A DNA stretch of 64,000 bases, taken from the NCBI GenBank assembly GCA_023898525.1, contig CP060227.1, positions 957,932 to 1,021,931 on the forward strand. Direction: 5' to 3'. Positions 13,781 to 54,301 of the stretch are shown piece after piece (the stretch's first letter is position 1; each line of letters opens with the position of its first letter). A program made the translations under genes and the position numbers. The notes beneath the pieces were generated by a model. The model searched no databases. It was not told the DNA's origin and saw nothing but the letters and a program-made list of their open reading frames with translations. This DNA comes from Candidatus Nomurabacteria bacterium. Its GTDB lineage: Bacteria > Patescibacteriota > Minisyncoccia > Phycocordibacterales > UBA918.

Positions 13781-14635
13781 CTATGACTTGGTACAAACAG
13801 AGGCGATGGTAAATAAGTCACTCATGTCTACACCGCGCCTCGTGCTATTTGACTGAAGGTTGATGCTATATTGGTCTCCTGGTTCTATTGGGGCTGAACC
13901 TTTTTGTTCGGTGGAGGTTACGTGGTCCTTACTTATATACCAATAATATACACCTTCGGTGGTACGTACAGTATCTAGTCTCAAAACGGTGCTTGGGGTG
14001 TTAAGGAGAATGTCTACAGTGCTGCCTTCAAGGTATTCAGGATGCCACTTAACTTCTACAACATCACCATAACAAAATATTTCACCACCCAAAGGATAAA
14101 TTAAGGATTGCTTGTTTGGAGTGTTTGATTCTTGGTAATCAGGGTACAAGTTTACCTTCATTGGCGGCGGGTTGTATGACGGGTCTATGGTTACTGGTGG
14201 CGGTTGATTACTTCCGATTTCTTGAGGAGTAGCAGCAGGAGGATTGGTAGGTTGTATGGGTGTCGTGGTATCAAGAGAATCGTCGGTCTCAGTAATCGTC
14301 GGTGTAGGTTCTGGTGTTGTGGCTTGATTTGGTGTCGGGCTTGGTTCTGGTTTGTTTTCACTGTAGGAGGTAGTTGGTTGTATAGGTGTGGCAGGTTCTG
14401 GTGAGTCCCGCTTAAGTAAAATATAAACAGATGCAGAAGCGATAATGACAATAAAAAGTACCGCTGCAATCATCATTACAATAACAGCTCTTTTTTTCTC
14501 TGGGGCCAAAGGTGCAGCGGGTGGTGTGGGTGGTGGTGGAGCCGGAATCGGCTCATCTTGATCTGGGTTATTTTCTACCCCAACAACCTCTTCTGGTGTA
14601 GAGGTTGACTCTTCTTTGGTTTGATTTGTATTCAT
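13781..14635 (-). CDS. Pro/Thr-rich membrane-anchored surface protein with a C-terminal globular domain
   Basis: N-terminal TM helix, a long P/T/E-rich low-complexity linker, then a folded C-terminal domain. Confidence 0.5.
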   Translation of the reverse strand: MNTNQTKEESTSTPEEVVGVENNPDQDEPIPAPPPPTPPAAPLAPEKKRAVIVMMIAAVLFIVIIASASVYILLKRDSPEPATPIQPTTSYSENKPEPSPTPNQATTPEPTPTITETDDSLDTTTPIQPTNPPAATPQEIGSNQPPPVTIDPSYNPPPMKVNLYPDYQESNTPNKQSLIYPLGGEIFCYGDVVEVKWHPEYLEGSTVDILLNTPSTVLRLDTVRTTEGVYYWYISKDHVTSTEQKGSAPIEPGDQYSINLQSNSTRRGVDMSDLFTIASVCTKS

Positions 14636-14876: not shown

Positions 14877-15329
14877 TTATATAAGTCTGACTATTATATT
14901 TAGGGGAGAAATAGCATATATACTGAATATTCCAATAGACGATAATAGTTTAAGAAGAAGGAGTATCATTATAGGAGATATAACAAAATACAAGCTGCGT
15001 GCAATCTGGGGAGATACAGTTTGTCTATGTTTAGCTAAAAACCACAAATGTGGTGCAATTAGTAATCCTGCTGTATAGTCACCTAATAAACTAATTACGC
15101 CAAGCTTTATTAGAACTACGAGTAGTAATAAATATACAGATAAAAAATAATAGTATCGTTTGTTTTGTAAATCTCTTCTAATACCTGTGATAAGCAAAGA
15201 TAAAATTAAATACAGATCAAATATACTGACTGCTGAATTTATTACTTGCGTTCCACTAAGATATGCAATTACTACTAGCAATAATGCAATAGAAAGATAT
15301 TTAACCAAAATTTTATGTTCGTGTGACAT
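14877..15329 (-). CDS. Polytopic membrane protein (hypothetical)
   Basis: 150 aa with four predicted TM helices. Confidence 0.4.
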   Translation of the reverse strand: MSHEHKILVKYLSIALLLVVIAYLSGTQVINSAVSIFDLYLILSLLITGIRRDLQNKRYYYFLSVYLLLLVVLIKLGVISLLGDYTAGLLIAPHLWFLAKHRQTVSPQIARSLYFVISPIMILLLLKLLSSIGIFSIYAISPLNIIVRLI

Positions 15330-15760: not shown

Positions 15761-15776
15761 TTGGCTGGTCATTTTG

Positions 15777-15860
15777 TGCGCCGGGAGGGATTTGAACCCC
15801 CGTAGGGCGAAGCCCGTCAGATTTACAGTCTGATGCAATTGACCACTCTGCCACCGACGC
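15777..15860 (-). tRNA. tRNA-Tyr(GTA), type II
   Basis: Manual fold: acceptor GCGTCGG/CCGGCGC, anticodon stem TCAGA/TCTGA, loop CTGTAAA, long variable arm, T-arm GGGGG-TTCAAAT-CCCTC. Confidence 0.85.
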
Positions 15861-16141
15861 ATATTTATAATTTTGTAAGAACGCTTAGTTTCTACTATGC
15901 GTTCGACCTTATTTCCTCCTTTGGTCTTGCTCGTCAAAGCTTCGCAATGACTCACATCGACCAATCTGCTCGCATTCGCTCGCAGACCAGATGAAAAGTG
16001 AAACTGTTCACTTTTCATCTGGTCTGCCACCGACGCATATGTATTTGTGTACCGTAAGTATTCTTAGAGACACGTAGGCTATAAATTACCACAACCTGTG
16101 CGTTTTTAAAAGGGCTGGCTAATGGTACCATATAAAATAAC

Positions 16142-17107
16142 ATGTGGAGAATTCTTTTGGTTGTAGTGTTGATTTCGTTACCAAGTATATCTAGCGCGGC
16201 TGGACTGGTGCCTTGTGGCGGTGTTGGTGAGGAGCCTTGTCAATTTTGTCACGTCTCGCAGCTCGTAAATAATGTGACAATCTGGCTCACAGCTGCCCTG
16301 ACTTCAATTCTTATTCTAGTAATCGTGGTAATGGGTCTACATTTAGTAACTTCAACTGGTGAGGTTGACTCAAAAACCCGCGCCAAAAGATTTATCTCTA
16401 CCGCTATCGTTGGGTATATCATATTCTTGGCGGCGGCTATGATTGTTGATTTTGCTATGAAGCTAATGGTGGATAACGCAACTTATGGTTTTTGGAACAA
16501 AATTCAGTGTATAGAACAGCCGGTGGCACAAGAGGCTAGGTTATCTGCTTCTGGTTATAATGATCATATTATGACCAGTAATGAGATCAAAAATATTCCA
16601 ATTACCGGACCGGTAGCTTCTATGATCACACAAGCAGCTAACAATAATGACTTAACCGATCCTAAAAAACTTTCCTATTTCCAAGCTATAATTGCTCAGG
16701 AATCATCTAACTGCACGAATAAGGTGGGGACGGTGGCTTATGGTTGTGGACAGGTAACGGTTGATACTGCACGTCAGCTGGACCCGTCATTGCGTGGTAT
16801 GAGCGATGAGCAAATAAAAAATAAATTAATAAATGATAATGCTTATAACCTAAATCTGAGTGCGGCTAATTTTAATCGGTTACTTGGGTTGTATGGTGGT
16901 AATTATGACTCTGCTTTGGCGGCTTATAATGGAGGGTATATGGCTAACCAGCCAAGCAGAGACTGTCCTGGTCTAAATCGGTGGGAATGTGTCTGGGACA
17001 GTCCGGGTTGTTATGGTACTAATAACACAGACTGTAAGGTAAATGAAGGTTATAAAGAGACCAGAAATTATGTGACAAATATTAACAACGCCGTAAACCT
17101 AAAGTAA
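16142..17107 (+). CDS. Membrane-anchored lytic transglycosylase (SLT domain) with an N-terminal VirB2/TrbC-pilin-like two-helix module
   Basis: Signal peptide, Cys motif PCGGVGEEPCQFC and two TM helices. SLT catalytic motif AQESS and AYNGG. Confidence 0.65.
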   Translation: MWRILLVVVLISLPSISSAAGLVPCGGVGEEPCQFCHVSQLVNNVTIWLTAALTSILILVIVVMGLHLVTSTGEVDSKTRAKRFISTAIVGYIIFLAAAMIVDFAMKLMVDNATYGFWNKIQCIEQPVAQEARLSASGYNDHIMTSNEIKNIPITGPVASMITQAANNNDLTDPKKLSYFQAIIAQESSNCTNKVGTVAYGCGQVTVDTARQLDPSLRGMSDEQIKNKLINDNAYNLNLSAANFNRLLGLYGGNYDSALAAYNGGYMANQPSRDCPGLNRWECVWDSPGCYGTNNTDCKVNEGYKETRNYVTNINNAVNLK

Positions 17108-17121
17108 TTAATAAATTATCT

Positions 17122-17973
17122 ATGTCTAAAAAAAACATAATCAGCTCAAGTTTAATTGCCTTGATTTTGGTTGGGTGGATTAGTTCTGTAGAACCTGTGC
17201 AGGCGGCCTTTGTCCCTTGCGACGGCGTTGATTGTAGTTTATGTAATCTGGTTGACATGATTAATCTAATAATCCTTTGGTTGTTTGGGATAATCTTCCT
17301 TATCTTTGCGGTTATAATGCTGGTGGCTGGGTTCGGCTTAATTACGGCTGGAGGCAATCAAACAGCTCTAGATGAAGCCAAAAAGAAATTCCAGAACGCG
17401 GTTATCGGTATCATAATCGTTATGGCGGCTTGGCTCTTGATTGATACCATTATGAAAGGCTTGCTTACCGACGGTGAAATAAGTGGCTACGGCCCATGGA
17501 CTGATGTGCAGTGTCAGCAGCAGACTGTTCCAATCGAACACGGAGAATTGGGCTACGCTGGAGGTACGCCGCCGGATCCAAATATTACTGCCGAATGTAC
17601 AGACGATGCAGCTTTGATGGCTAAGTACAAAGGTTCACCGGTTGGTGTAGAAGCCCCAGGGCTTAGGAAAATGATTAATTGTTACAGGGCTGATCAGAAT
17701 ATTGAGAAGGTGTTGGATACAAACCAAATTTTCACTGTTGATAGAACACATGAACGTTGTAGCTTAACCAACGGTAATCCGGTTTGTGGCCCTTGTAGTC
17801 ACAGCAATAATTCTATGCACTATGGTCGTGGTAGTGGACAGGGAGCACGAGCAGTCGACTTTAACGCCAGAGGAGTTTCTGAGTCAACTCTCTTTGGTTT
17901 GATCAGAGAGCGACAAAAGGTGTGTGGTGGTACGTTAAATTACGAGAATAGCCATACACATATTAGTTTGTAG
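17122..17973 (+). CDS. Membrane-anchored peptidase M15 (VanY/D-Ala-D-Ala carboxypeptidase-like) with the same N-terminal pilin-like module
   Basis: Paralogous N-terminus (signal peptide, PCDGVDCSLC, two TM helices). C-terminal motifs SMHYGRGSGQGARAVD and ENSHTHISL, typical of zinc M15 peptidases. Confidence 0.6.
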   Translation: MSKKNIISSSLIALILVGWISSVEPVQAAFVPCDGVDCSLCNLVDMINLIILWLFGIIFLIFAVIMLVAGFGLITAGGNQTALDEAKKKFQNAVIGIIIVMAAWLLIDTIMKGLLTDGEISGYGPWTDVQCQQQTVPIEHGELGYAGGTPPDPNITAECTDDAALMAKYKGSPVGVEAPGLRKMINCYRADQNIEKVLDTNQIFTVDRTHERCSLTNGNPVCGPCSHSNNSMHYGRGSGQGARAVDFNARGVSESTLFGLIRERQKVCGGTLNYENSHTHISL

Positions 17974-18478: not shown

Positions 18479-18542
18479 GGGTCCTCGTGGATCCTCGCTC
18501 GCAAAACAAAAGTAACCCTATTCGGGTTACTTTTGTTGCTCG

Positions 18543-18613
18543 CGGGCCCACGAGGACTCGAACCTCGGCCGCTGGTTTTGGAGACCAGCATTCTACCACT
18601 AAACTATAGGCCC
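18543..18613 (-). tRNA. tRNA-Trp(CCA)
   Basis: Manual fold: acceptor GGGCCTA/TGGGCCC, anticodon stem CTGGT/ACCAG, loop CTCCAAA, T-arm CGAGG-TTCGAGT-CCTCG. Confidence 0.85.
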
Positions 18614-18946: not shown

Positions 18947-19852
18947 CTAGTTGTCTAGAAGAGTTTTAACTTCCTCTTCAAGTTTATCAACATCAACTGG
19001 GAATTTTTTCCAAATTATGTCTGAATCAGCTTTTAGCCAGGTATATTGACGTTTGGCGAATTGTCTTGATTTGATTATGATTAGCTCCTGCATTTCTGTG
19101 TAAGTAATCTTATTTTGTAAGTACTCTGTAATATATCTATATTCTAGGCCAAAACTTATTAGTTTGTCTGAAGAGATACCTTGCTCGAGTAAGTTTTCTA
19201 CTTCGTCCACCATGCCTTTCTTCAGCCGGTTTTCCAGTCTGGTTTTTATTCTTTTTTCCAGATCTGCTTTGTCGATATCAATTCCTAGGATTACCCAGTC
19301 ATAAGGGGTGGATACGCCTTTGTCCGCACTAGGAACTTTACCCAGAGACTCAATTATCTCCAAAGAGCGAATTAGTCGTCGACGATTGTGTTCGTCTATA
19401 GTCTTGGCTCTAACCTCATCCTTTTCCAGTAATTTTGTAAAAAGTTCTTCGTTAGAAAGCTTTTCCAACTCAGCCCTTAAAATAGGGTTTGGCGGTACCG
19501 GCGCGGCCGCTTTGCGGCCGCGTAAAAGCTCCAGCCAAAAAAAAGTACCACCAGTCACGATAGGTAATTTATCTCGCTTCAAAATGTTTTCAATAGCCGC
19601 TTTCGCGTCACGTGAAAAATCGGCGCCGGTATATGTTTCTTTAGCTAGGTTCGCTATATCCAGTAGGTAGTGAGGCACGTCTCTCATCTCTGGGGTGGTT
19701 ATTTTACCAGAGCCAATATCCAGACCTCGGTACACTTGTCTAGAGTCAGTAGAAATAACCTCGCCACCAAGGCGAAGTGCAAGTTCCACTGCTAAATCAG
19801 ACTTGCCCGAAGCGGTTGGTCCAACAATGGCTAGGACTTTTGGTTTGGTCAT
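18947..19852 (-). CDS. miaA: tRNA dimethylallyltransferase
   Basis: P-loop GPTASGKS and MiaA core motifs. 301 aa. Confidence 0.9.
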   Translation of the reverse strand: MTKPKVLAIVGPTASGKSDLAVELALRLGGEVISTDSRQVYRGLDIGSGKITTPEMRDVPHYLLDIANLAKETYTGADFSRDAKAAIENILKRDKLPIVTGGTFFWLELLRGRKAAAPVPPNPILRAELEKLSNEELFTKLLEKDEVRAKTIDEHNRRRLIRSLEIIESLGKVPSADKGVSTPYDWVILGIDIDKADLEKRIKTRLENRLKKGMVDEVENLLEQGISSDKLISFGLEYRYITEYLQNKITYTEMQELIIIKSRQFAKRQYTWLKADSDIIWKKFPVDVDKLEEEVKTLLDN

Positions 19853-25643: not shown

Positions 25644-26561
25644 ATGCATCAGCATCTTAATCAATCAGACCGTGCTTGTATAGCCGCTCTTTTAAGAAAA
25701 GAATATTCATACAGTGCTATAGCTAGGGTACTTGAAGTACACCCAAGCACTATTAGTCGCGAAGTGAGAAGGAATAGCAGCGGAAGCTATAGAGTCCATC
25801 ACGCACAGCGCTGTGCGAGATTGAGACGAGCAAACGCTCGGACAATGTATCGCACCATAGACACTAATGTGGTGCTAGAGCAGCACATCATCGATGGACT
25901 CAAACAAGATTGGTCGCCAGACCAAATAGTGGTGCGTTGCGGTGTTTCATCAGTGAGTTCAATCTATCGGTATTTAGAAAGACAGCCACACCTCAAGCAG
26001 TACCTGAGACGCGGTGGCAGACGCAGGCGAAAGTACGGTACCAAACGCATACCAAGCAGGTATCAAGCCAATAAACGTTCAATTCATGAGCGACCACCGA
26101 TACAGAGTATCGGTCATTGGGAGGGTGATACCGTGCTCGGGAGTGAACGGAAGCTACGTATTGTGACGTACGTGGACAAAGTCAGTGGCTATTTGATTGC
26201 CGCAAAGACTTCAGGTGGTGCCGACGCGATACATGCGCAAGCTAGAAAACAGTTTAGACATATGCCGTGCAACTCAATCACTTATGATAATGGAACCGAG
26301 TTTGCCTTGCATCAGATGATTGAGCGAGACTGCAATACCAAAGTGTATTTCGCCGACCCAGGAGCACCACATCAACGTGGTGCAAATGAGAACTGCAATG
26401 GACTCTTGCGGCAGTATTTCCCGAAAGGCACATCGTTTGCTACGATAACTAACAGCGACGTGCAGCGTGCCGTTCGAAGACTAAACAACCGACCGCGCAA
26501 ACGTCTCAACTATTTAACACCACGGGAATTCTTAGAAAAAGAAGGTGTGCATCTCAGGTGA
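25644..26561 (+). CDS. IS30-family transposase (copy 1)
   Basis: N-terminal HTH and DDE triad context (HWEGDTV, DNGTEF, ...E). 305 aa. Terminal inverted repeats not resolved. Confidence 0.85.
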   Translation: MHQHLNQSDRACIAALLRKEYSYSAIARVLEVHPSTISREVRRNSSGSYRVHHAQRCARLRRANARTMYRTIDTNVVLEQHIIDGLKQDWSPDQIVVRCGVSSVSSIYRYLERQPHLKQYLRRGGRRRRKYGTKRIPSRYQANKRSIHERPPIQSIGHWEGDTVLGSERKLRIVTYVDKVSGYLIAAKTSGGADAIHAQARKQFRHMPCNSITYDNGTEFALHQMIERDCNTKVYFADPGAPHQRGANENCNGLLRQYFPKGTSFATITNSDVQRAVRRLNNRPRKRLNYLTPREFLEKEGVHLR

Positions 26562-35740: not shown

Positions 35741-36764
35741 CACCCTAATTGCACAATCCTTTGCACCCTAATTGCACAGGTCAAGATGACATACATACTG
35801 CTTTTGTATGTCACACAAACAAATAGGACCGGAAGACTGGCCGGTTATTTCACGTATGCTCAAAGCGGGATACTCAGGAGTGGAGATTGCGCACATTATC
35901 AACAAAGATCCAAGTGCGGTTAATAGACATATTAAAGCGTATGGTGGTCGGGATAGATACGATGCTCGCGAGGTTCGCAGAAAGAAAAAACAGGCACGTA
36001 TCATTGCTATGGAAGGTACTAGAATACTCAAAGGAGTATTATTACGAGAAGTGAAACGATTATTAAAACAACACTACTCACCGGAACAGATAGTCGGAGT
36101 ACGTGATGACATCTCTGCGAGCACTATCTACCGATACATTAACGAACGAGCTCCACACCTTAAACAATTTCTTCGTTCTCAGAAAGGCAAGTATCGGCGC
36201 AAACGAGGCACCAAAATACGTGAAAAAGTTCGTGAAAGAGCCAAGAAACGTCGTATTGATGAACGACCGCCCATTATTGAACGTCGCTCCCGTTTGGGAG
36301 ATTGGGAGGGAGATACTATGCTGGGAAGAGACAAACGAGTACGTATTGTCACCTTCGTTGATCGCAGAAGCGGGTATCTAATTGCGTATCTTCTGCCAAA
36401 ATTAAATGCTACTTTACTCACTAAACTGGCGGTGGAAAAATTCAGGCGTATACCCAAAAACAAACGAAAGACCGCTACCTTTGATAACGGTACCGAGTTC
36501 AGTGACTGGGAACGGTTTGAGAAACAAACGAGTATGACTGTGTACTTTGCTTATCCATACCACTCTTGGGAGCGTGGTACCAATGAAAATACTAACGGGC
36601 TACTTCGACAATATTTTCCGAAAGACTTGGATTTCAACACCATTACTCCACAAGAACTTTCTGAAGCGGTTCGTCGTATAAATCATCGTCCTAGAAAGAG
36701 ACATAATTTCAAGTCTCCACATCAGATATTTTGGAAGTGATGGTCTGTGCAATTAGGGTGGTGA
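35741..36764 (+). mobile_element. IS30-family insertion sequence (copy 2) with identifiable inverted repeats
   Basis: The left IR caccctaattgcaca (duplicated in tandem at 35741 and 35763) pairs with the right IR tgtgcaattagggtg (36749-36763). The transposase ORF lies between them. Confidence 0.65.
35808..36740 (+). CDS. IS30-family transposase (copy 2, distinct sequence from copy 1)
   Basis: DDE context DWEGDTM, DNGTEF and a C-terminal E. 310 aa. Confidence 0.85.
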   Translation: MSHKQIGPEDWPVISRMLKAGYSGVEIAHIINKDPSAVNRHIKAYGGRDRYDAREVRRKKKQARIIAMEGTRILKGVLLREVKRLLKQHYSPEQIVGVRDDISASTIYRYINERAPHLKQFLRSQKGKYRRKRGTKIREKVRERAKKRRIDERPPIIERRSRLGDWEGDTMLGRDKRVRIVTFVDRRSGYLIAYLLPKLNATLLTKLAVEKFRRIPKNKRKTATFDNGTEFSDWERFEKQTSMTVYFAYPYHSWERGTNENTNGLLRQYFPKDLDFNTITPQELSEAVRRINHRPRKRHNFKSPHQIFWK

Positions 36765-46103: not shown

Positions 46104-46244
46104 AAACAAAAGAGGTATTTTAAATATTCATGTCTATCGCTGCCGGATCGTCTAATGGTAGGACTACGGTTTCTGGTACCGTCTATCGGGGTTCGAGTCC
46201 CTGTCCGGCAGCGATGGTCGGGAATTAAAATACCTCTTTTGTTT
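46104..46244. repeat. Perfect 20-bp inverted repeats bracketing the intact tRNA-Gln
   Basis: aaacaaaagaggtattttaa (46104-46123) and ttaaaatacctcttttgttt (46225-46244). Confidence 0.8.
46141..46211 (+). tRNA. tRNA-Gln(CTG)
   Basis: Manual fold: acceptor TGCCGGA/TCCGGCA, anticodon stem ACGGT/ACCGT, loop TTCTGGT, T-arm CGGGG-TTCGAGT-CCCTG. Confidence 0.8.
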
Positions 46245-46429: not shown

Positions 46430-47410
46430 ATGCCAAAAAAGAAAGAGATTGGTCCAATGGTCATTTACCAAACAAAGTCTGGTGCGCTTGAATTGCGTGG
46501 GGATGCGAAGAAAGAGACTTTGTGGGCGACTCAAGCTCAGATTGCACAAGCATTTGATGTTGATGTACGTACTATAAACGAGCATATAAAAAATATTTAT
46601 AAGACTGAGGAGCTGTTTGAGAAGTCAACTATCCGGAAATTCCGGATAGTTCAAACTGAAGGGAAGCGTACGGTTAAACGTGAAATGAATCACTATAATC
46701 TAGATATGATTATTTCGGTTGGTTATCGAGTAAACAGTAAGAAGGCGACTCAATTTCGTCAATGGTCCACCAAGACACTTCGTGAACATATTGTCAAGGG
46801 TTACACTATAAATCGTAAGCGAATAGGACATAATTACGATATTTTTATGAAGGCTGTAGCGGACGTTCAGGCACTACTACCTGAACATGTCACTCTTGAC
46901 CCTAAGACAGTACTTGAACTTATTAAGGAGTTTGCTTCAACGTGGGTTTCACTTGATGCATATGACAAAGAATCTCTAGAAATCAAAGGGGTGACCAAAA
47001 AGCGTGTGACGCTTGTGGGTGCGGATTTACGCAATGCGATCAATGAGCTTAAGTACGAACTTGTGCGTAAAGGTGAGGCTGCTGATATATTTGCGTCTGA
47101 ACGTAGAGAGGGAGATGTGGAAGGTATTGTTGGAAATGTTATGCAGTCTTTTGATGGAAAGTTCGTATATTCTACAGTAGAAGAAAAAGCTGCTCATCTT
47201 CTATATTTTATGGTCAAGAATCACCCATTCATCGACGGAAATAAAAGGTCTGGTGCTTTTGCGTTTGTATGGTTTCTTAGAAAGACAGGTGTACGTGGAG
47301 CTAAAAATATAAACCCAGCAGCCCTCACAACCCTAACTCTTCTTATTGCAGAAAGTGATCCAAAGCAAAAGGATCAAATTGTTGCTTTGGTAACTCAAAT
47401 GTTGAAGTAG
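46430..47410 (+). CDS. RhuM-family N-terminal domain fused to a Fic/Doc domain
   Basis: Fic motif HPFIDGNKRSG. The N-terminal region is RhuM-like (…NHYNLDMIISVGYRVNS…). Confidence 0.75.
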   Translation: MPKKKEIGPMVIYQTKSGALELRGDAKKETLWATQAQIAQAFDVDVRTINEHIKNIYKTEELFEKSTIRKFRIVQTEGKRTVKREMNHYNLDMIISVGYRVNSKKATQFRQWSTKTLREHIVKGYTINRKRIGHNYDIFMKAVADVQALLPEHVTLDPKTVLELIKEFASTWVSLDAYDKESLEIKGVTKKRVTLVGADLRNAINELKYELVRKGEAADIFASERREGDVEGIVGNVMQSFDGKFVYSTVEEKAAHLLYFMVKNHPFIDGNKRSGAFAFVWFLRKTGVRGAKNINPAALTTLTLLIAESDPKQKDQIVALVTQMLK

Positions 47411-52541: not shown

Positions 52542-53090
52542 ATGTCCTTACTAAACACTCTTAATCTTTTGTTTGCTTCTGGTGGACTCGTTTTGGCGGT
52601 GGTGACCATTGGCTTGTATGTAGATTATTTCTATAACCAAAGTAAGTTTTTTGACCGTTGGCTGGCTCGGTTTGCTTGGTCGATTGTTATGGTGACTACT
52701 ATCGGTAGTGTAGCTATTACACTTCTATACTCGGAGTATTTTGGTTTTGTGCCATGTTCACTTTGTTGGTTGCAACGGATTGCCATGTATCCGCAGGCTT
52801 TGCTTTCGGTGATGGCTTTCAGAATGAAGGAGCGCGTATTTTTCCCGCTATACAGTATTGCTTTGTCGGTATTTGGTTTTGTGGTCGCTGTCTATCACTA
52901 CATCTACCAAATGCAACCAAAAGAAGAATTGGCTAACGGCGTCATGCCTTGCTTGGCTGATGGTTCGGCTGACTGTGCGACTAAGGTGATTGATATGTTC
53001 GGCTTTGTGACCTTCCCGCTATTGTCCGCGATAACTTTCGCTTTCTTGATTGTGGTGTATTTGAATATGCGGAGGGGAGGGAGAGAATAG
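52542..53090 (+). CDS. Disulfide bond formation protein B (DsbB/BdbC family)
   Basis: Four TM helices with Cys pairs CSLC and PC...C in the periplasmic loops. Confidence 0.7.
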   Translation: MSLLNTLNLLFASGGLVLAVVTIGLYVDYFYNQSKFFDRWLARFAWSIVMVTTIGSVAITLLYSEYFGFVPCSLCWLQRIAMYPQALLSVMAFRMKERVFFPLYSIALSVFGFVVAVYHYIYQMQPKEELANGVMPCLADGSADCATKVIDMFGFVTFPLLSAITFAFLIVVYLNMRRGGRE

Positions 53091-53430: not shown

Positions 53431-53847
53431 ATGAAAAGGATAATAATTTGCTGTTCAATATCAGTATCTGGTGACGTTTTACCTATTAAAAAAGATTTAG
53501 AAAAAATGGGTTTTGCAGTAGAAATTCCTTTTGGTGTTCAACAATATATTGATAACGGATATAAACATATAAGTGAGACTGAAAGAATGCAGAATAAAAT
53601 AGATATGGATTTAATTACTCGCTACTACAAAAGGATACAGGATAGCGATTATGTACTTATTATAAATACAGAGAAGGGGGGGAAAGAAAATTATATTGGT
53701 GGAAATACCTTTCTTGAGATGGGATTTGCTCACGTTCTAGGTAAACCTATGTTTGTTTTGAATCCATTGCCAGAAGTTTCTTATCGGGATGAGCTAGAGG
53801 CTATGAACTTAAAGGTTATTAACGGTGATTTGGGGTTGATAAAGTAG
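53431..53847 (+). CDS. Nucleoside 2-deoxyribosyltransferase-like protein (NDT/Rcl fold) paralogue 1
   Basis: Motif IGGNTFLEMGFAHVLGKPMFVL, matching the NDT-family catalytic Glu context. Confidence 0.55.
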   Translation: MKRIIICCSISVSGDVLPIKKDLEKMGFAVEIPFGVQQYIDNGYKHISETERMQNKIDMDLITRYYKRIQDSDYVLIINTEKGGKENYIGGNTFLEMGFAHVLGKPMFVLNPLPEVSYRDELEAMNLKVINGDLGLIK

Positions 53848-53896: not shown

Positions 53897-54301
53897 ATGA
53901 ACAACTTCTCGCACCAAGCTTTAGAACTAAAAGAAGAATGGCCTTTGGTCTATACGGCCATGTCTAAGCATTTGTTTTATTACCGAATGTTTATTTCAAA
54001 ATACGTGTTGGAGCAGAGCGCTGTACCACTGAATCCTTTTATGGTGTTTGACTACTTTATGCTTGATGTTGTTGATCGGGATCTGGTGCGACAGGGTAAC
54101 AACAGTATGGTCAGGCGGAGTGATGAAATCTGGGTGTTTGGTCCGGTTAGTAACGGGGTTTTGGCTGAAGTGCAGATCGCTAAAGAGCAAGGAAAACCGG
54201 TGAAGTACTTTAAAACAGATAAGCCTCATACCATAATTTCGATAGATAAATTGGAAGTGGAAATGGAAGATGAGGTGAAGGAGTTTAGGGAGAGTCTGTA
54301 A
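53897..54301 (+). CDS. Nucleoside 2-deoxyribosyltransferase-like protein paralogue 2
   Basis: Motif VFGPVSNGVLAEVQIAKEQGKPVKYF. Confidence 0.55.
   Translation: MNNFSHQALELKEEWPLVYTAMSKHLFYYRMFISKYVLEQSAVPLNPFMVFDYFMLDVVDRDLVRQGNNSMVRRSDEIWVFGPVSNGVLAEVQIAKEQGKPVKYFKTDKPHTIISIDKLEVEMEDEVKEFRESL

What the first reader, a model, noticed from the sequence alone, without database searches (positions are those of the whole stretch)
16142..17973. Paralogous gene pair fusing a VirB2/TrbC-pilin-like N-terminal membrane module to two different peptidoglycan hydrolases (SLT transglycosylase and M15 peptidase)
Both proteins start with signal peptide, PCxGV..C..C motif, TM helix, short charged loop and TM helix. 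That is the topology of conjugative pilins. They then diverge into an SLT domain (AQESS...AYNGG) and an M15 zinc peptidase (SxHxxGxAxD...HxH). Hydrolases anchored through a pilin-like module suggest localisation to a T4SS or pilus-like apparatus, or a CPR-specific cell-wall remodelling machine relevant to episymbiotic attachment.
Basis: partly seen in the sequence, partly recalled or inferred. Interest (0 to 1): 0.55.

Follow-up and report, generated by a model that had tools for sequence, protein, structure and literature searches.

The report
Wall-cutting enzymes on pilin-like anchors
Two neighbouring genes of an ultra-small (Patescibacteria) bacterium each join a conjugative-pilin-like membrane hairpin to a different cell-wall-cutting enzyme; this pairing is conserved and widespread but I found no paper describing it, and it may be the wall-opening part that studies of these bacteria's type IV secretion system report as missing.

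Summary
ORF A (16142-17107, 321 aa) and ORF B (17122-17973, 283 aa) form a two-gene operon in a Candidatus Nomurabacteria genome.

- **N-termini:** both pass Pfam T4SS_pilin (PF18895) above its curated cut-off. They share a signal peptide, four invariant Cys and an alpha-helical hairpin. A profile of the module retrieves genuine short pilins at E down to 6e-36.
- **Protein A:** carries a family-1 lytic transglycosylase domain with the catalytic Glu-Ser intact.
- **Protein B:** has no Pfam hit in its C-domain, but a confident model matches only Hedgehog/DD-peptidase (LAS) folds. It keeps invariant H/D/HxH residues and aligns to positional equivalents that do pass Peptidase_M15_3.
- **Conservation:** the pair sits in a vertically inherited core slot (tRNA-Tyr | pair | tRNA-Trp | miaA | ParB...) in every relative examined. 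The SLT gene stays while the second gene's LAS domain is swapped among four types; one genome has a plain pilin there.
- **Wider family:** every fused domain that Pfam recognises is a peptidoglycan hydrolase.
- **T4SS link:** no T4SS gene lies in the window or near the pair in any locus.

Best reading: membrane-tethered wall hydrolases that use the pilin pathway, equivalent to VirB1. A T4SS-independent autolysin role is not excluded.

The parts
16142..17107 (+). Gene A: pilin-module::lytic transglycosylase fusion (321 aa). Identical to P0068, which NCBI annotates as 'lytic transglycosylase domain-containing protein' of Candidatus Nomurabacteria.
   Evidence: ORF; Pfam PF18895 + PF01464; exact database match.
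16142..16201 (+). A: Sec signal peptide (residues 1 to ~20; predicted cleavage SSA|AG).
   Evidence: Read from the sequence. This is the least conserved region (0.30 mean pairwise identity). The cleavage site is inferred.
16205..16516 (+). A: VirB2/TrbC-type pilin module (residues 22-125). It comprises Cys25, Cys33, Cys36, helix 1, a short loop, helix 2, the G-x-W motif and Cys123.
   Evidence: PF18895, 33.3 bits against a cut-off of 26.6, residues 39-104; own N-module HMM 3e-39; invariant Cys.
16667..16945 (+). A: family-1 lytic transglycosylase (SLT) core, residues 176-268. Catalytic Glu187-Ser188, a GCGQ motif, and AYNGG at 260-265.
   Evidence: Pfam SLT above cut-off; invariant E187/S188/N263/G265; profile hits to Slt70, Pseudomonas Slt, MltC and MltE structures, best E 2.5e-13; PHROG endolysin families.
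16952..17104 (+). A: conserved Cys-rich C-terminal tail (residues 271-321; C275, C283, C290, C298; ...ETRNYV...).
   Evidence: Alignment A5. This is the most conserved region of A (0.63). Part of it aligns to the end of Slt structures.
17122..17973 (+). Gene B: pilin-module::LAS (Hedgehog/DD-peptidase-fold) putative zinc peptidase fusion (283 aa). Identical to P0001, hypothetical protein H6779_04850.
   Evidence: ORF; Pfam PF18895 only; exact database match; genome record GCA_020632175.1.
17122..17205 (+). B: Sec signal peptide (residues 1-28; predicted cleavage VQA|AF).
   Evidence: Read from the sequence; AF2 helix 3-21; low conservation 0.25. The cleavage site is inferred.
17209..17520 (+). 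B: VirB2/TrbC-type pilin module (residues 30-133). It comprises Cys33, Cys38, Cys41, helix 40-75, a turn at A-G-G-N, helix 80-114, the GPW motif and Cys131.
   Evidence: PF18895, 32.7 bits against 26.6; TrbC E 0.076; AF2 pLDDT 86-92 over the hairpin; own HMM 8e-40.
17521..17586 (+). B: poorly conserved, low-confidence linker (residues 134-155).
   Evidence: pLDDT 50-60; 0.24 mean pairwise identity.
17587..17970 (+). B: LAS-type (Hedgehog/DD-peptidase fold) domain, residues 156-283. Proposed Zn ligands are His233 (17818-17820), Asp246 (17857-17859) and His280 (17959-17961), with His278 and His227 also invariant. Six conserved Cys.
   Evidence: AF2 domain model pLDDT 91.5, pTM 0.82. The top 7 Foldseek PDB hits are all Hedgehog N-domains, then LdcB, all at E >= 0.05. 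BFVD hits 'Peptidase M15A, C-terminal'. hhalign to the M15_3-positive type-E domain gives E 9e-4. No Pfam hit.
15776..15860 (-). tRNA-Tyr(GTA): conserved upstream border of the slot.
   Evidence: same position in 8 related loci.
18542..18613 (-). tRNA-Trp(CCA): conserved downstream border of the slot, followed by miaA (18947-19852, minus strand).
   Evidence: same position in 8 related loci.

Best explanation
A and B are a co-transcribed pair of extracytoplasmic peptidoglycan hydrolases. A cuts the glycan strand (family-1 lytic transglycosylase). B cuts the peptide part (a divergent LAS/M15-like zinc peptidase). Each is built on a complete VirB2/TrbC-type T4SS pilin module.

Proposed mechanism:
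1. Sec export and signal-peptidase cleavage leave the helical hairpin in the membrane with both ends outside, as for VirB2 propilins (inferred).
2. Conserved Cys form disulfides, probably C1-C2 and C3-C4. The C3-C4 bond would clasp the start of helix 1 to the segment after helix 2 (weakly supported).
3. A flexible linker of roughly 20-50 residues holds the catalytic domain in the wall layer (inferred from the model and conservation).
4. The module has the sequence of a real pilin and is as conserved as the catalytic core. The enzymes are therefore taken to enter the same membrane pool and assembly site as the plain pilins of the Patescibacterial T4SS-like machine. There they open the wall locally, which is the role played by VirB1-type hydrolases (PrgK, TraG-pIP501, CwlT) in monoderm conjugation systems (inferred; the least certain step).

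I put the domain identities and topology at about 0.85 confidence. The T4SS/pilin-pathway coupling is about 0.45, and that is the figure given as the overall confidence.
For: - **Pilin module:** PF18895 is above its cut-off in both proteins. The module profile finds genuine short pilins at E 6e-36 to 1e-20, several of which also hit PF04956. One is P0216, a complete 141-aa four-Cys pilin inside a three-gene pilin array.
- **Constraint on the hairpin:** it is as conserved as the SLT core (0.45-0.51 against 0.51) and much more conserved than the signal peptide or linker.
- **Hydrolase domains:** for A; for B.
- **Conserved pairing:** in 9 of 9 related loci an N-module-SLT gene is followed directly by a second N-module gene. 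Its C-domain belongs to one of four LAS-like types. Type E passes Peptidase_M15_3 and HH_signal. So one glycan cutter plus one peptide cutter is what selection keeps.
- **Wider family:** 18,381 cluster representatives carry the module. Among 60 of its close relatives with unclassified tails, the only enzymatic domains Pfam recognises are wall hydrolases: SLT_3, VanY, M15_3, M15_4, NlpC/P60, Extensin-like_C and SLT.
- **The slot is a pilin locus:** L015 has a plain 124-aa pilin there.
- **Literature:** most Patescibacteria with VirB2-like pilins have no detectable VirB1, and pilin genes are often not next to virB4 (PMC12102498). VirB4 is reported in 19 of 20 Nomurabacteria listed.
- **Disulfide machinery:** a DsbB gene in the window fits disulfide-bonded exported domains.
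Against: - No T4SS gene (VirB4, VirB6, PrgI/VirB3, VirD4) is in the 64-kb window or within 10 kb of the pair in any related locus.
- The pair sits among housekeeping genes in a deeply conserved, vertically inherited arrangement, which fits a housekeeping role equally well.
- Whether this genome has a T4SS at all could not be checked.
- No T4SS pilus has yet been seen in any Patescibacterium, so the label 'pilin' for PF18895 is itself an inference (PMC10633639, PMC12857230).
- The N-module profile matches no solved pilin by sequence.
- All structural matches for B's C-domain have E >= 0.05.
Confidence: 0.45

Rival explanations
1. Housekeeping autolysins. The two enzymes are the cell's routine wall-remodelling pair for growth, division or daughter-cell separation. 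The pilin-derived hairpin now serves only as a membrane tether that limits their reach. They work independently of any T4SS.
For: - The locus is core, vertically inherited and syntenic among IF-2, IscS, ClpB, miaA, ParB, RelA, TopA and DprA, even where protein A is only 31-48% identical.
- No T4SS gene is nearby in any locus.
- A 1.09-Mb genome needs some wall hydrolases.
- The window also encodes an S11 DD-carboxypeptidase, so ordinary peptidoglycan metabolism is present.
Against: - The hairpin keeps pilin-specific sequence and is as conserved as the catalytic core. A plain tether should need only hydrophobicity.
- A plain pilin occupies the same slot in L015.
- The same module is fused again and again to different wall hydrolases across thousands of clusters. 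That argues the module brings a specific property to these enzymes.
Confidence: 0.3
2. Modular pilins. A and B are polymerised, at low stoichiometry or at the tip or base, into a VirB2-type filament together with plain pilins. The filament then carries wall-cutting enzymes to the host cell and breaches the host wall during episymbiotic attachment or feeding.
For: - The pilin module is complete, and the catalytic domain follows the C-terminal, outward-facing end through a flexible linker.
- The combination of a glycan cutter and a peptide cutter is what phage lysins and interbacterial effectors use. This comparison rests on my own knowledge.
- Patescibacteria are largely episymbionts with an essential T4SS and pilin arrays (PMC10633639).
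- Type IV (not T4SS) 'modular pilins' with bulky C-terminal modules, such as Streptococcus sanguinis PilB, are a precedent. This also rests on my own knowledge and was not checked here.
Against: - No filament has been observed, and there is no evidence that a 15-20 kDa C-terminal domain can be packed into a VirB2-type pilus.
- Strict one-copy, core-genome conservation looks more like a self-directed function than host-range adaptation.
- Against that, the domain swapping in gene 2 would fit adaptation to different host walls.
Confidence: 0.13
3. An ordinary two-helix membrane anchor with no real relation to pilins. This is the refutation condition named by the first reader.
For: Hydrophobic helices can give spurious profile hits. 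The N-module profile finds no solved pilin.
Against: - Pfam's curated cut-off is passed by both proteins and by 60 of 60 relatives.
- Matches to short pilins have E down to 6e-36 at 30-60% identity, including non-hydrophobic positions: four Cys, G-G-N turn, A-K, G-P-W.
- Several relatives also hit TrbC/VirB2.
Confidence: 0.03
4. A prophage or lysis cassette: two endolysins with signal-anchor N-termini, inserted between two tRNA genes.
For: The pair is flanked by tRNA-Tyr and tRNA-Trp. A's SLT domain hits PHROG endolysin and lytic tail families.
Against: - The two tRNAs and the pair are in the same order in 8 divergent genomes.
- No phage genes are nearby.
- B and the neighbouring ORFs have no PHROG hit.
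- GC content is unremarkable.
Confidence: 0.02

Closest known systems
VirB2/TrbC-type T4SS pilins of Patescibacteria (Pfam PF18895 T4SS_pilin, related to PF04956), e.g. the essential pilin array of Southlakia epibionticum ML1
   Same: The layout is the same: signal peptide, two long hydrophobic helices joined by a short loop, and both ends outside. Both proteins pass the Pfam cut-off and are 30-60% identical to plain 120-160 aa pilins. Some of those pilins carry the same four-Cys signature.
   Different: A and B carry a 150-200 residue enzymatic domain after the module, whereas plain pilins end a few residues after helix 2. The genes are not in a T4SS cluster or a pilin array. They occupy a fixed housekeeping slot.
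VirB1-type cell-wall hydrolases of monoderm conjugation systems (PrgK of pCF10, TraG of pIP501, CwlT of ICEBs1, TcpG of pCW3)
   Same: They are membrane-anchored and extracytoplasmic, and they combine a glycan-cleaving and a peptide-cleaving activity (as cited in PMC12102498).
   Different: In those proteins both activities are in one polypeptide. The anchor is a plain N-terminal TM helix, the peptidase is CHAP or NlpC/P60 (Cys) rather than a LAS metallopeptidase, and the gene lies inside the T4SS operon. Here there are two proteins, each on a pilin module, away from any T4SS gene.
Family-1 lytic transglycosylases (Slt70, Pseudomonas Slt, MltC, MltE; Pfam SLT PF01464)
   Same: The catalytic Glu-Ser and AYNGG motifs are present. 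Profile E-values to solved Slt structures are 2.5e-13 to 1e-10.
   Different: GCGQ replaces GLMQ. A Cys-rich tail is added. The enzyme is tethered by a pilin hairpin instead of being soluble or a lipoprotein.
LAS zinc peptidases with the Hedgehog/DD-peptidase fold (MEROPS M15: VanX/VanY, LdcB, phage M15 endolysins; Hedgehog N-terminal domain)
   Same: The predicted fold's only consistent matches are Hedgehog N-domains and LdcB. H...D...HxH residues are invariant. The domain is homologous, by hhalign E 9e-4, to positional equivalents that pass Peptidase_M15_3 and HH_signal.
   Different: B has no Pfam M15 hit. The spacing is H-x12-D because of a Gly-rich insertion, not H-x6-D. There are six conserved Cys. 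All structural E-values are >= 0.05.
Modular type IV pilins (pilin module plus a functional C-terminal module, e.g. Streptococcus sanguinis PilB/PilC). Cited from my own knowledge, not checked here.
   Same: The concept is the same: a pilin module used as a carrier for a globular functional domain.
   Different: It is an unrelated pilin family (type IVa pilins with a class III signal peptide) and a different machine (T4P, not T4SS). The attached modules are adhesive rather than enzymatic.

Membership tests
T4SS pilin, VirB2/TrbC-like (Pfam PF18895 / PF04956) | Match to the curated family model above its gathering score | tested here: met
   PF18895 scores 33.3 bits (A) and 32.7 bits (B) against a cut-off of 26.6. 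PF04956 is only E 0.076 for B. 60 of 60 relatives hit PF18895 and some also hit PF04956.
T4SS pilin, VirB2/TrbC-like (Pfam PF18895 / PF04956) | Cleavable leader followed by two hydrophobic helices joined by a short polar or basic loop | tested here: met
   AF2 places helices at 40-75 and 80-114 with a turn at A-G-G-N, followed by E-A-K-K-K. Signal peptides with A-x-A sites can be read from the sequence.
T4SS pilin, VirB2/TrbC-like (Pfam PF18895 / PF04956) | Small protein (mature ~70-130 aa) consisting of the pilin module only | tested here: not met
   A is 321 aa and B is 283 aa, with 150-200 aa catalytic domains after the module.
T4SS pilin, VirB2/TrbC-like (Pfam PF18895 / PF04956) | Encoded with T4SS genes (virB4, virB6, virB3) | tested here: not met
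   There are none in the 64-kb window or within 10 kb in L001 and L005-L014. In Patescibacteria only 1135 of 1948 assemblies have a pilin near virB4 (PMC12102498), so this feature is not strict.
T4SS pilin, VirB2/TrbC-like (Pfam PF18895 / PF04956) | Polymerises into a T4SS-dependent filament | not testable with these tools
   This needs microscopy or biochemistry. No such filament has been reported for any Patescibacterium.
Family-1 lytic transglycosylase (Pfam SLT PF01464) | Match to the family model above its gathering score | tested here: met
   27.4 bits against 21.3, residues 176-268. Profile hits to Slt70, Slt, MltC and MltE structures, best E 2.5e-13.
Family-1 lytic transglycosylase (Pfam SLT PF01464) | Catalytic Glu in the E-S motif, plus the GLMQ and AYNxG motifs | tested here: met
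   E187-S188, Q204, A260, N263 and G265 are invariant and G264 is nearly invariant in 32 sequences. GLMQ is replaced by GCGQ.
Family-1 lytic transglycosylase (Pfam SLT PF01464) | Cleaves MurNAc-GlcNAc bonds, forming 1,6-anhydroMurNAc | not testable with these tools
   Needs an enzyme assay.
Peptidase M15 / LAS (Hedgehog/DD-peptidase fold) | Match to a curated M15 family model | tested here: not met
   B's C-domain has no Pfam hit even at E <= 10. Type-E equivalents at the same position in L009 and L012 pass Peptidase_M15_3 (29.1 and 25.5 bits against 23.2), and the L009 protein also passes HH_signal (26.2 against 22.1).
Peptidase M15 / LAS (Hedgehog/DD-peptidase fold) | Zinc-ligand motif H-x(3-6)-D ... 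H-x-H | tested here: inconclusive
   H233, D246, H278 and H280 are invariant, but the spacing is H-x12-D. hhalign places a 6-residue insertion between the His and the Asp.
Peptidase M15 / LAS (Hedgehog/DD-peptidase fold) | Hedgehog/DD-peptidase fold | tested here: inconclusive
   The model is confident (pLDDT 91.5). The top 7 PDB hits are all Hedgehog N-domains (TM up to 0.46, 111 columns, rmsd 2.9 A; 30% identity over 60 columns), followed by LdcB. All have E >= 0.05. BFVD hits M15A peptidases weakly.
Peptidase M15 / LAS (Hedgehog/DD-peptidase fold) | Homology to a bona fide member shown by profile comparison | tested here: met
   hhalign of the B profile against the type-E (M15_3-positive) domain gives E 8.9e-4 and 38% identity over 48 columns covering the motif region. 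The hhalign probability is only 23%.
VirB1-type T4SS wall hydrolase of monoderms (PrgK / TraG / CwlT) | Membrane-anchored extracytoplasmic protein combining glycan-cleaving and peptide-cleaving domains | tested here: inconclusive
   Both activities are predicted and both proteins are anchored, but they are split over two proteins and use a different peptidase class.
VirB1-type T4SS wall hydrolase of monoderms (PrgK / TraG / CwlT) | Encoded within the T4SS operon and required for its function | tested here: not met
   The gene location requirement is not met (see the context calls above). The functional requirement cannot be tested here.

The most novel reading that the evidence does not exclude
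A and B are the first 'modular' VirB2-type pilins. These would be pilin subunits that carry an enzyme, with the two outside ends of the hairpin clasped by a disulfide (an analogue of the head-to-tail cyclisation of T-pilin and TrbC). They would be incorporated into a T4SS-dependent filament of a monoderm episymbiont, which would then carry a lytic transglycosylase and a zinc peptidase to the host cell wall. The repeated swapping of the second enzyme domain would reflect adaptation to different host wall chemistries.
Probability: 0.12. Interest if true: 0.85.

Novelty: new variant of a known kind. Interest (0 to 1): 0.5.

Why it matters
Patescibacteria are a very large, mostly uncultured part of bacterial diversity. 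Their T4SS-like system and its VirB2-like pilins are essential in the one species tested. Nobody yet knows what the system does, whether it makes a pilus, or how it crosses the cell wall.

The 2025 survey of 3,035 genomes concluded that most lineages with pilins lack a VirB1 hydrolase (PMC12102498). The fusions described here would be counted as 'pilins' in such screens, yet they carry exactly the two activities a VirB1 equivalent needs. They therefore offer a concrete and testable candidate for the missing wall-opening function.

They also show that the pilin module is used over and over as a carrier for wall hydrolases: SLT, SLT_3, M15_3, M15_4, VanY, NlpC/P60 and four Pfam-orphan LAS types. 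The B-type domain is in addition an undescribed, Pfam-orphan branch of the Hedgehog/DD-peptidase superfamily.

Tried and rejected
1. **B-family profile against PDB sequences:** no hit at E <= 10. The N-module profile gave only a spurious de novo design. Sequence alone therefore cannot tie either part of B to a solved structure.
2. **Foldseek with the full-length B model:** the signal was diluted by the hairpin. Repeating with a domain-only model gave consistent hits, but they were still weak.
3. **Pfam on B's C-domain and on types C and D:** no significant M15 hit. hhalign of B against type C and of C against E was not significant. Only B against E links up.
4. **Search for further copies of the module in the window:** none.
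5. **Search for T4SS genes:** I scanned almost all ORFs of 170 aa or more across the window and in the flanks of related loci. The insertion between miaA and ParB in L005 and L006 looked promising but is a copper-ATPase/DsbD/cupredoxin cassette.
6. **Genome-collection scan:** it returned only 8 loci because the back-translated pattern was narrow.
7. **This genome's VirB4 status:** I tried to find it in the supplement of PMC12102498. The assembly is not in the stored part of the table.
8. **P0206 in L004:** it looked like a stand-alone pilin in the same slot, but it is the N-terminal half of a split A-type gene. I rejected it as evidence.
9. **Heme-binding reading of the CxxCH motif in A:** rejected because the His is not kept in the B family.
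10. **Prophage/lysis-cassette reading:** rejected on synteny.
11. **Promoter and terminator scan:** not above the shuffled expectation.
Full report
**1. What is there**

The window is part of a Candidatus Nomurabacteria (Patescibacteria, class Paceibacteria) genome. Both proteins have exact matches in public records: P0068 is A and P0001 is B (locus tag H6779_04850). They occur on a 1,087,875-bp contig and in assembly GCA_020632175.1.

ORF A (16142..17107, 321 aa) and ORF B (17122..17973, 283 aa) are on the + strand, 14 nt apart, so they are very probably co-transcribed. BLASTP aligns them only over residues 7-131 of A and 11-139 of B (33% identity, E 1e-18). The C-terminal parts are unrelated in sequence.

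**2. The N-terminal module**

Both N-termini pass Pfam T4SS_pilin (PF18895) above the curated cut-off: 33.3 and 32.7 bits against 26.6. B also touches TrbC/VirB2 (PF04956) at E 0.076.

AlphaFold2 with a 32-sequence alignment predicts a signal-peptide helix followed by two long helices (40-75 and 80-114). They are joined by a four-residue turn, at pLDDT 86-92.

Four Cys are invariant in both families: three just after the predicted signal-peptidase site and one about 17 residues after helix 2. All four are present in 329 of 394 module sequences. The 15 sequences that lack the third Cys also lack the fourth, while keeping the first two. This suggests C1-C2 and C3-C4 disulfides. The C3-C4 bond would clasp the two outside ends of the hairpin. 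The evidence is weak because the sequences are related by descent, and I could not read distances from the model. A DsbB gene in the window (52542-53090) fits an oxidising export pathway.

A profile of the module alone (alignment A4) retrieves 68 short proteins of 108-195 aa at E down to 6e-36. Nearly all are annotated PF18895 and several also PF04956. Some of these come from short contigs and may be fragments. Others are certainly complete:
- P0216 (141 aa, four Cys) is the first gene of a three-gene pilin array.
- P0203 (124 aa) is followed by a tRNA gene 47 nt after its end.

Within each family the hairpin is as conserved as the SLT catalytic core (mean pairwise identity 0.45-0.51 against 0.51). 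It is far more conserved than the signal peptide (0.25-0.30) or the linker (0.24-0.33).

The 'ordinary double-TM anchor' alternative is therefore rejected. One caveat remains. The module matches no solved pilin by sequence, and 'pilin' is itself an inferred label for PF18895, because no T4SS filament has been observed in Patescibacteria (PMC10633639, PMC12857230).

**3. The catalytic domains**

*Protein A.* It passes Pfam SLT (27.4 bits against 21.3). The family alignment keeps the catalytic E187-S188, a GCGQ version of the GLMQ motif, and AYNGG. The family profile hits solved lytic transglycosylases (Pseudomonas Slt, E. coli Slt70, MltC, MltE) with E from 2.5e-13. A conserved four-Cys tail follows.

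*Protein B.* Its C-domain has no Pfam hit even at E <= 10 and no sequence match in the PDB. A domain-only AF2 model is confident (pLDDT 91.5, pTM 0.82).
- Its seven best PDB matches are all Hedgehog N-terminal domains. The best local match has TM 0.46 over 111 columns at rmsd 2.9 A, and identity reaches 30% over 60 columns.
- The M15B LD-carboxypeptidase LdcB follows (TM 0.45-0.47).
- Every one of these E-values is 0.05 or worse.
- The viral library gives 'Peptidase' and 'Peptidase M15A, C-terminal', also weakly.
- H227, H233, D246, H278 and H280 are invariant.

The decisive link comes from the neighbours, described next.

**4. The pair is conserved, and the second enzyme is swapped**

In all nine related loci with both genes in view (L001, L005-L012), an N-module-SLT gene is followed directly by a second N-module gene of about 294-336 aa. 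These loci are labelled Paceibacterota, Parcubacteria and, for three MAGs, Saccharibacteria.

The second gene's C-domain falls into four sequence types:
- **Type B:** the window and L005.
- **Type C:** L001, L007, L008, L010, L011.
- **Type D:** L006.
- **Type E:** L009, L012.

Type E passes Pfam Peptidase_M15_3 (29.1 and 25.5 bits against 23.2), and the L009 protein also passes HH_signal (26.2 against 22.1). Type C reaches HH_signal at E 9.5e-4, which is below the cut-off.

hhalign of the B-type profile against type E gives E 8.9e-4, with 38% identity over 48 columns. The alignment covers exactly ...H-S-x-x-S-x-H-Y...A-V-D...H-x-H. It shows that B carries a six-residue Gly-rich insertion, so its spacing is H-x12-D rather than H-x6-D.

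B is therefore a divergent member of the LAS (Hedgehog/DD-peptidase) superfamily. It is not shown to be a member of any curated M15 family. What selection keeps at this locus is one glycan cutter plus one LAS peptidase, each on the same module.

**5. Genomic context**

The order is RbfA-IF2 | IscS | ClpB | ... tRNA-Tyr | pair | tRNA-Trp | miaA | tRNA-Leu | ParB | RelA | TopA | DprA | SerRS. It holds in the window and in L001, L005, L006, L008, L009 and L011-L014, even where A is only 31-48% identical.

This is a core, vertically inherited slot. It is not an island: the flanking tRNAs are part of the synteny, and there are no phage genes.

In L015 the same slot holds only a plain 124-aa pilin that hits PF18895 and TrbC, so the slot is a pilin locus.

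No VirB4, VirB6, VirB3/PrgI or VirD4 gene occurs in the 64-kb window or within 10 kb of the pair anywhere. Pilin arrays in L002 and L016 are also far from any T4SS ATPase. The published survey found pilins near virB4 in only 1135 of 1948 assemblies. Absence of linkage therefore weakens a T4SS role but does not exclude it.

The T4SS status of this genome could not be checked. VirB4 is reported in 19 of the 20 Nomurabacteria assemblies on the part of Table S1 that I could read.

**6. How general is it**

An exhaustive HMM search with the window's two modules finds 18,381 cluster representatives at E <= 1e-3 and 1,601 at E <= 1e-10. The closest 150 break down as follows:
- 18 are stand-alone.
- 7 contain 5-8 tandem copies of the module.
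- The rest are fusions: 59 to the A-E domain types and 66 with tails that my HMMs did not recognise.

I scanned 60 of those 66 against Pfam. All 60 hit PF18895. The fused enzymatic domains that Pfam recognises are all wall hydrolases: SLT_3 (7), VanY (5), Peptidase_M15_4 (4), Peptidase_M15_3 (2), NlpC/P60 (2), Extensin-like_C (2) and SLT (2). The only other fused hit is one Flg_new_2 repeat domain.

'Pilin module plus wall hydrolase' is thus a broad and recurrent architecture, not a peculiarity of this genome.

**7. What is known**

Automated annotation already shows the domain pair. JGI, for example, names one homologue 'Type IV secretion system pilin/Transglycosylase SLT domain'. Pfam's SLT_3 is the accession next to T4SS_pilin.

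I found no paper that describes or discusses the fusion. The dedicated survey (PMC12102498) treats VirB2-like pilins and VirB1-like hydrolases as separate components. It concludes that most genomes with VirB2 lack VirB1, and it notes that in S. epibionticum a peptidase and a lysozyme homologue next to virB4 are essential.

**8. Interpretation**

*Shown:*
- the two ORFs and their paralogous N-modules;
- membership of PF18895;
- SLT identity of A;
- LAS-superfamily affinity of B;
- conservation of the pair and its slot;
- swapping of the second catalytic domain;
- the generality of pilin-hydrolase fusions.

*Inferred:*
- the topology (both ends and the catalytic domains outside);
- the disulfides;
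- the role.

I favour a VirB1-equivalent role in the pilin pathway of the T4SS-like machine (0.45). The reasons are that the module keeps pilin-grade sequence constraint, the slot can hold a plain pilin, the same module has been recruited repeatedly and specifically by wall hydrolases, and a VirB1 is otherwise missing.

The main rival is a T4SS-independent housekeeping autolysin pair (0.30). The housekeeping synteny and the absence of linked T4SS genes favour it. The most novel reading not excluded is that these are modular pilins that place the enzymes on a filament to attack the host wall (0.12-0.13).

**9. Verdict**

It is a new variant of known kinds (VirB2-like pilin, VirB1-like hydrolase) that is visible in databases but not described in the literature I could search. 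Interest is moderate. It bears directly on an open question about an essential but unexplained machine in a major bacterial lineage, but the functional link is still inferential.

Noticed in passing
window 15982-16027: A perfect 21-bp inverted repeat with a 4-nt loop lies between tRNA-Tyr and gene A, about 115 nt upstream of A's start codon. No T-run follows, and the terminator scan did not call it.
   Followed up: no
window 52542-53090 (+): A DsbB homologue (disulfide-bond formation; PF02600, E 1.2e-15). It is relevant to the many conserved extracytoplasmic Cys in A and B. The two small ORFs just downstream (53431-53847, 53897-54301) were not examined.
   Followed up: partly
window 25644-26561 (+) and 35808-36740 (+): Two transposase-like genes (HTH_38 plus an rve integrase core, IS30-like) in an otherwise syntenic housekeeping region.
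   Followed up: no
window 46430-47410 (+), next to tRNA-Gln 46141-46212: A RhuM-family/Fic-domain protein directly after a tRNA gene, possibly a small integrated element or a toxin-like gene.
   Followed up: no
window 13781-14635 (-) and 14877-15329 (-): Just upstream of the pair are a 284-aa Pro/Thr-rich single-TM protein and a 150-aa polytopic membrane ORF. Neither has a Pfam or PHROG hit. Unannotated ORFs of 119-188 aa on the minus strand sit upstream of the pair in L001 and L004.
   Followed up: no
proteins P0254 (583 aa), P0255 (552), P0257 (820), P0258 (555), P0284 (501), P0292 (433), P0308 (606): 'Poly-pilin' proteins containing 5-8 tandem copies of the pilin module in one polypeptide. 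They were among the very best hits of the module profile. I could not tell whether they are real multi-hairpin membrane proteins or pilin arrays fused by gene-calling errors.
   Followed up: partly
L002 10001-11177 and L016 10001-12153: Arrays of 3-5 PF18895 pilin genes sit directly downstream of an SBP_bac_1 (ABC-transporter solute-binding) gene. The context GyrA - methyltransferase - SBP - pilins - x - Band_7 is conserved, and no T4SS ATPase lies within 10 kb.
   Followed up: partly
L015 10001-10375: In one genome the slot between tRNA-Tyr and tRNA-Trp holds a plain 124-aa pilin instead of the hydrolase pair. A 1765-aa Hydrolase_2 (SleB-like) protein lies next to ClpB (486-5783).
   Followed up: partly
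window 16205-16260 (A residues 22-40); alignment A5: The A family has a conserved C-x-x-C-H at the start of the module, which has the form of a heme-c attachment motif. The His is not conserved in the B family (N/D/H/K), so heme binding is unlikely.
   Followed up: partly
Pfam PF18895 / PF18896: Pfam SLT_3 (PF18896, 'lysozyme like domain') is the accession right after T4SS_pilin (PF18895), and it is fused to it in 7 of 60 proteins scanned. The two models were probably built from one fusion protein, so curators have seen the architecture without it reaching the literature.
   Followed up: no
L004 10001-10925: P0206 (171 aa) looks like a stand-alone pilin. It is actually the N-terminal half of an A-type gene (near-identical to the start of P0176), followed by an overlapping 141-aa ORF. 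This is probably a frameshift or an assembly error.
   Followed up: partly
L005 13522-17235 and L006 6880-10587: In two genomes a copper-handling cassette is inserted between miaA and ParB. It comprises a P-type ATPase with an HMA domain, an HMA-DsbD_2 protein and a cupredoxin-like protein.
   Followed up: yes
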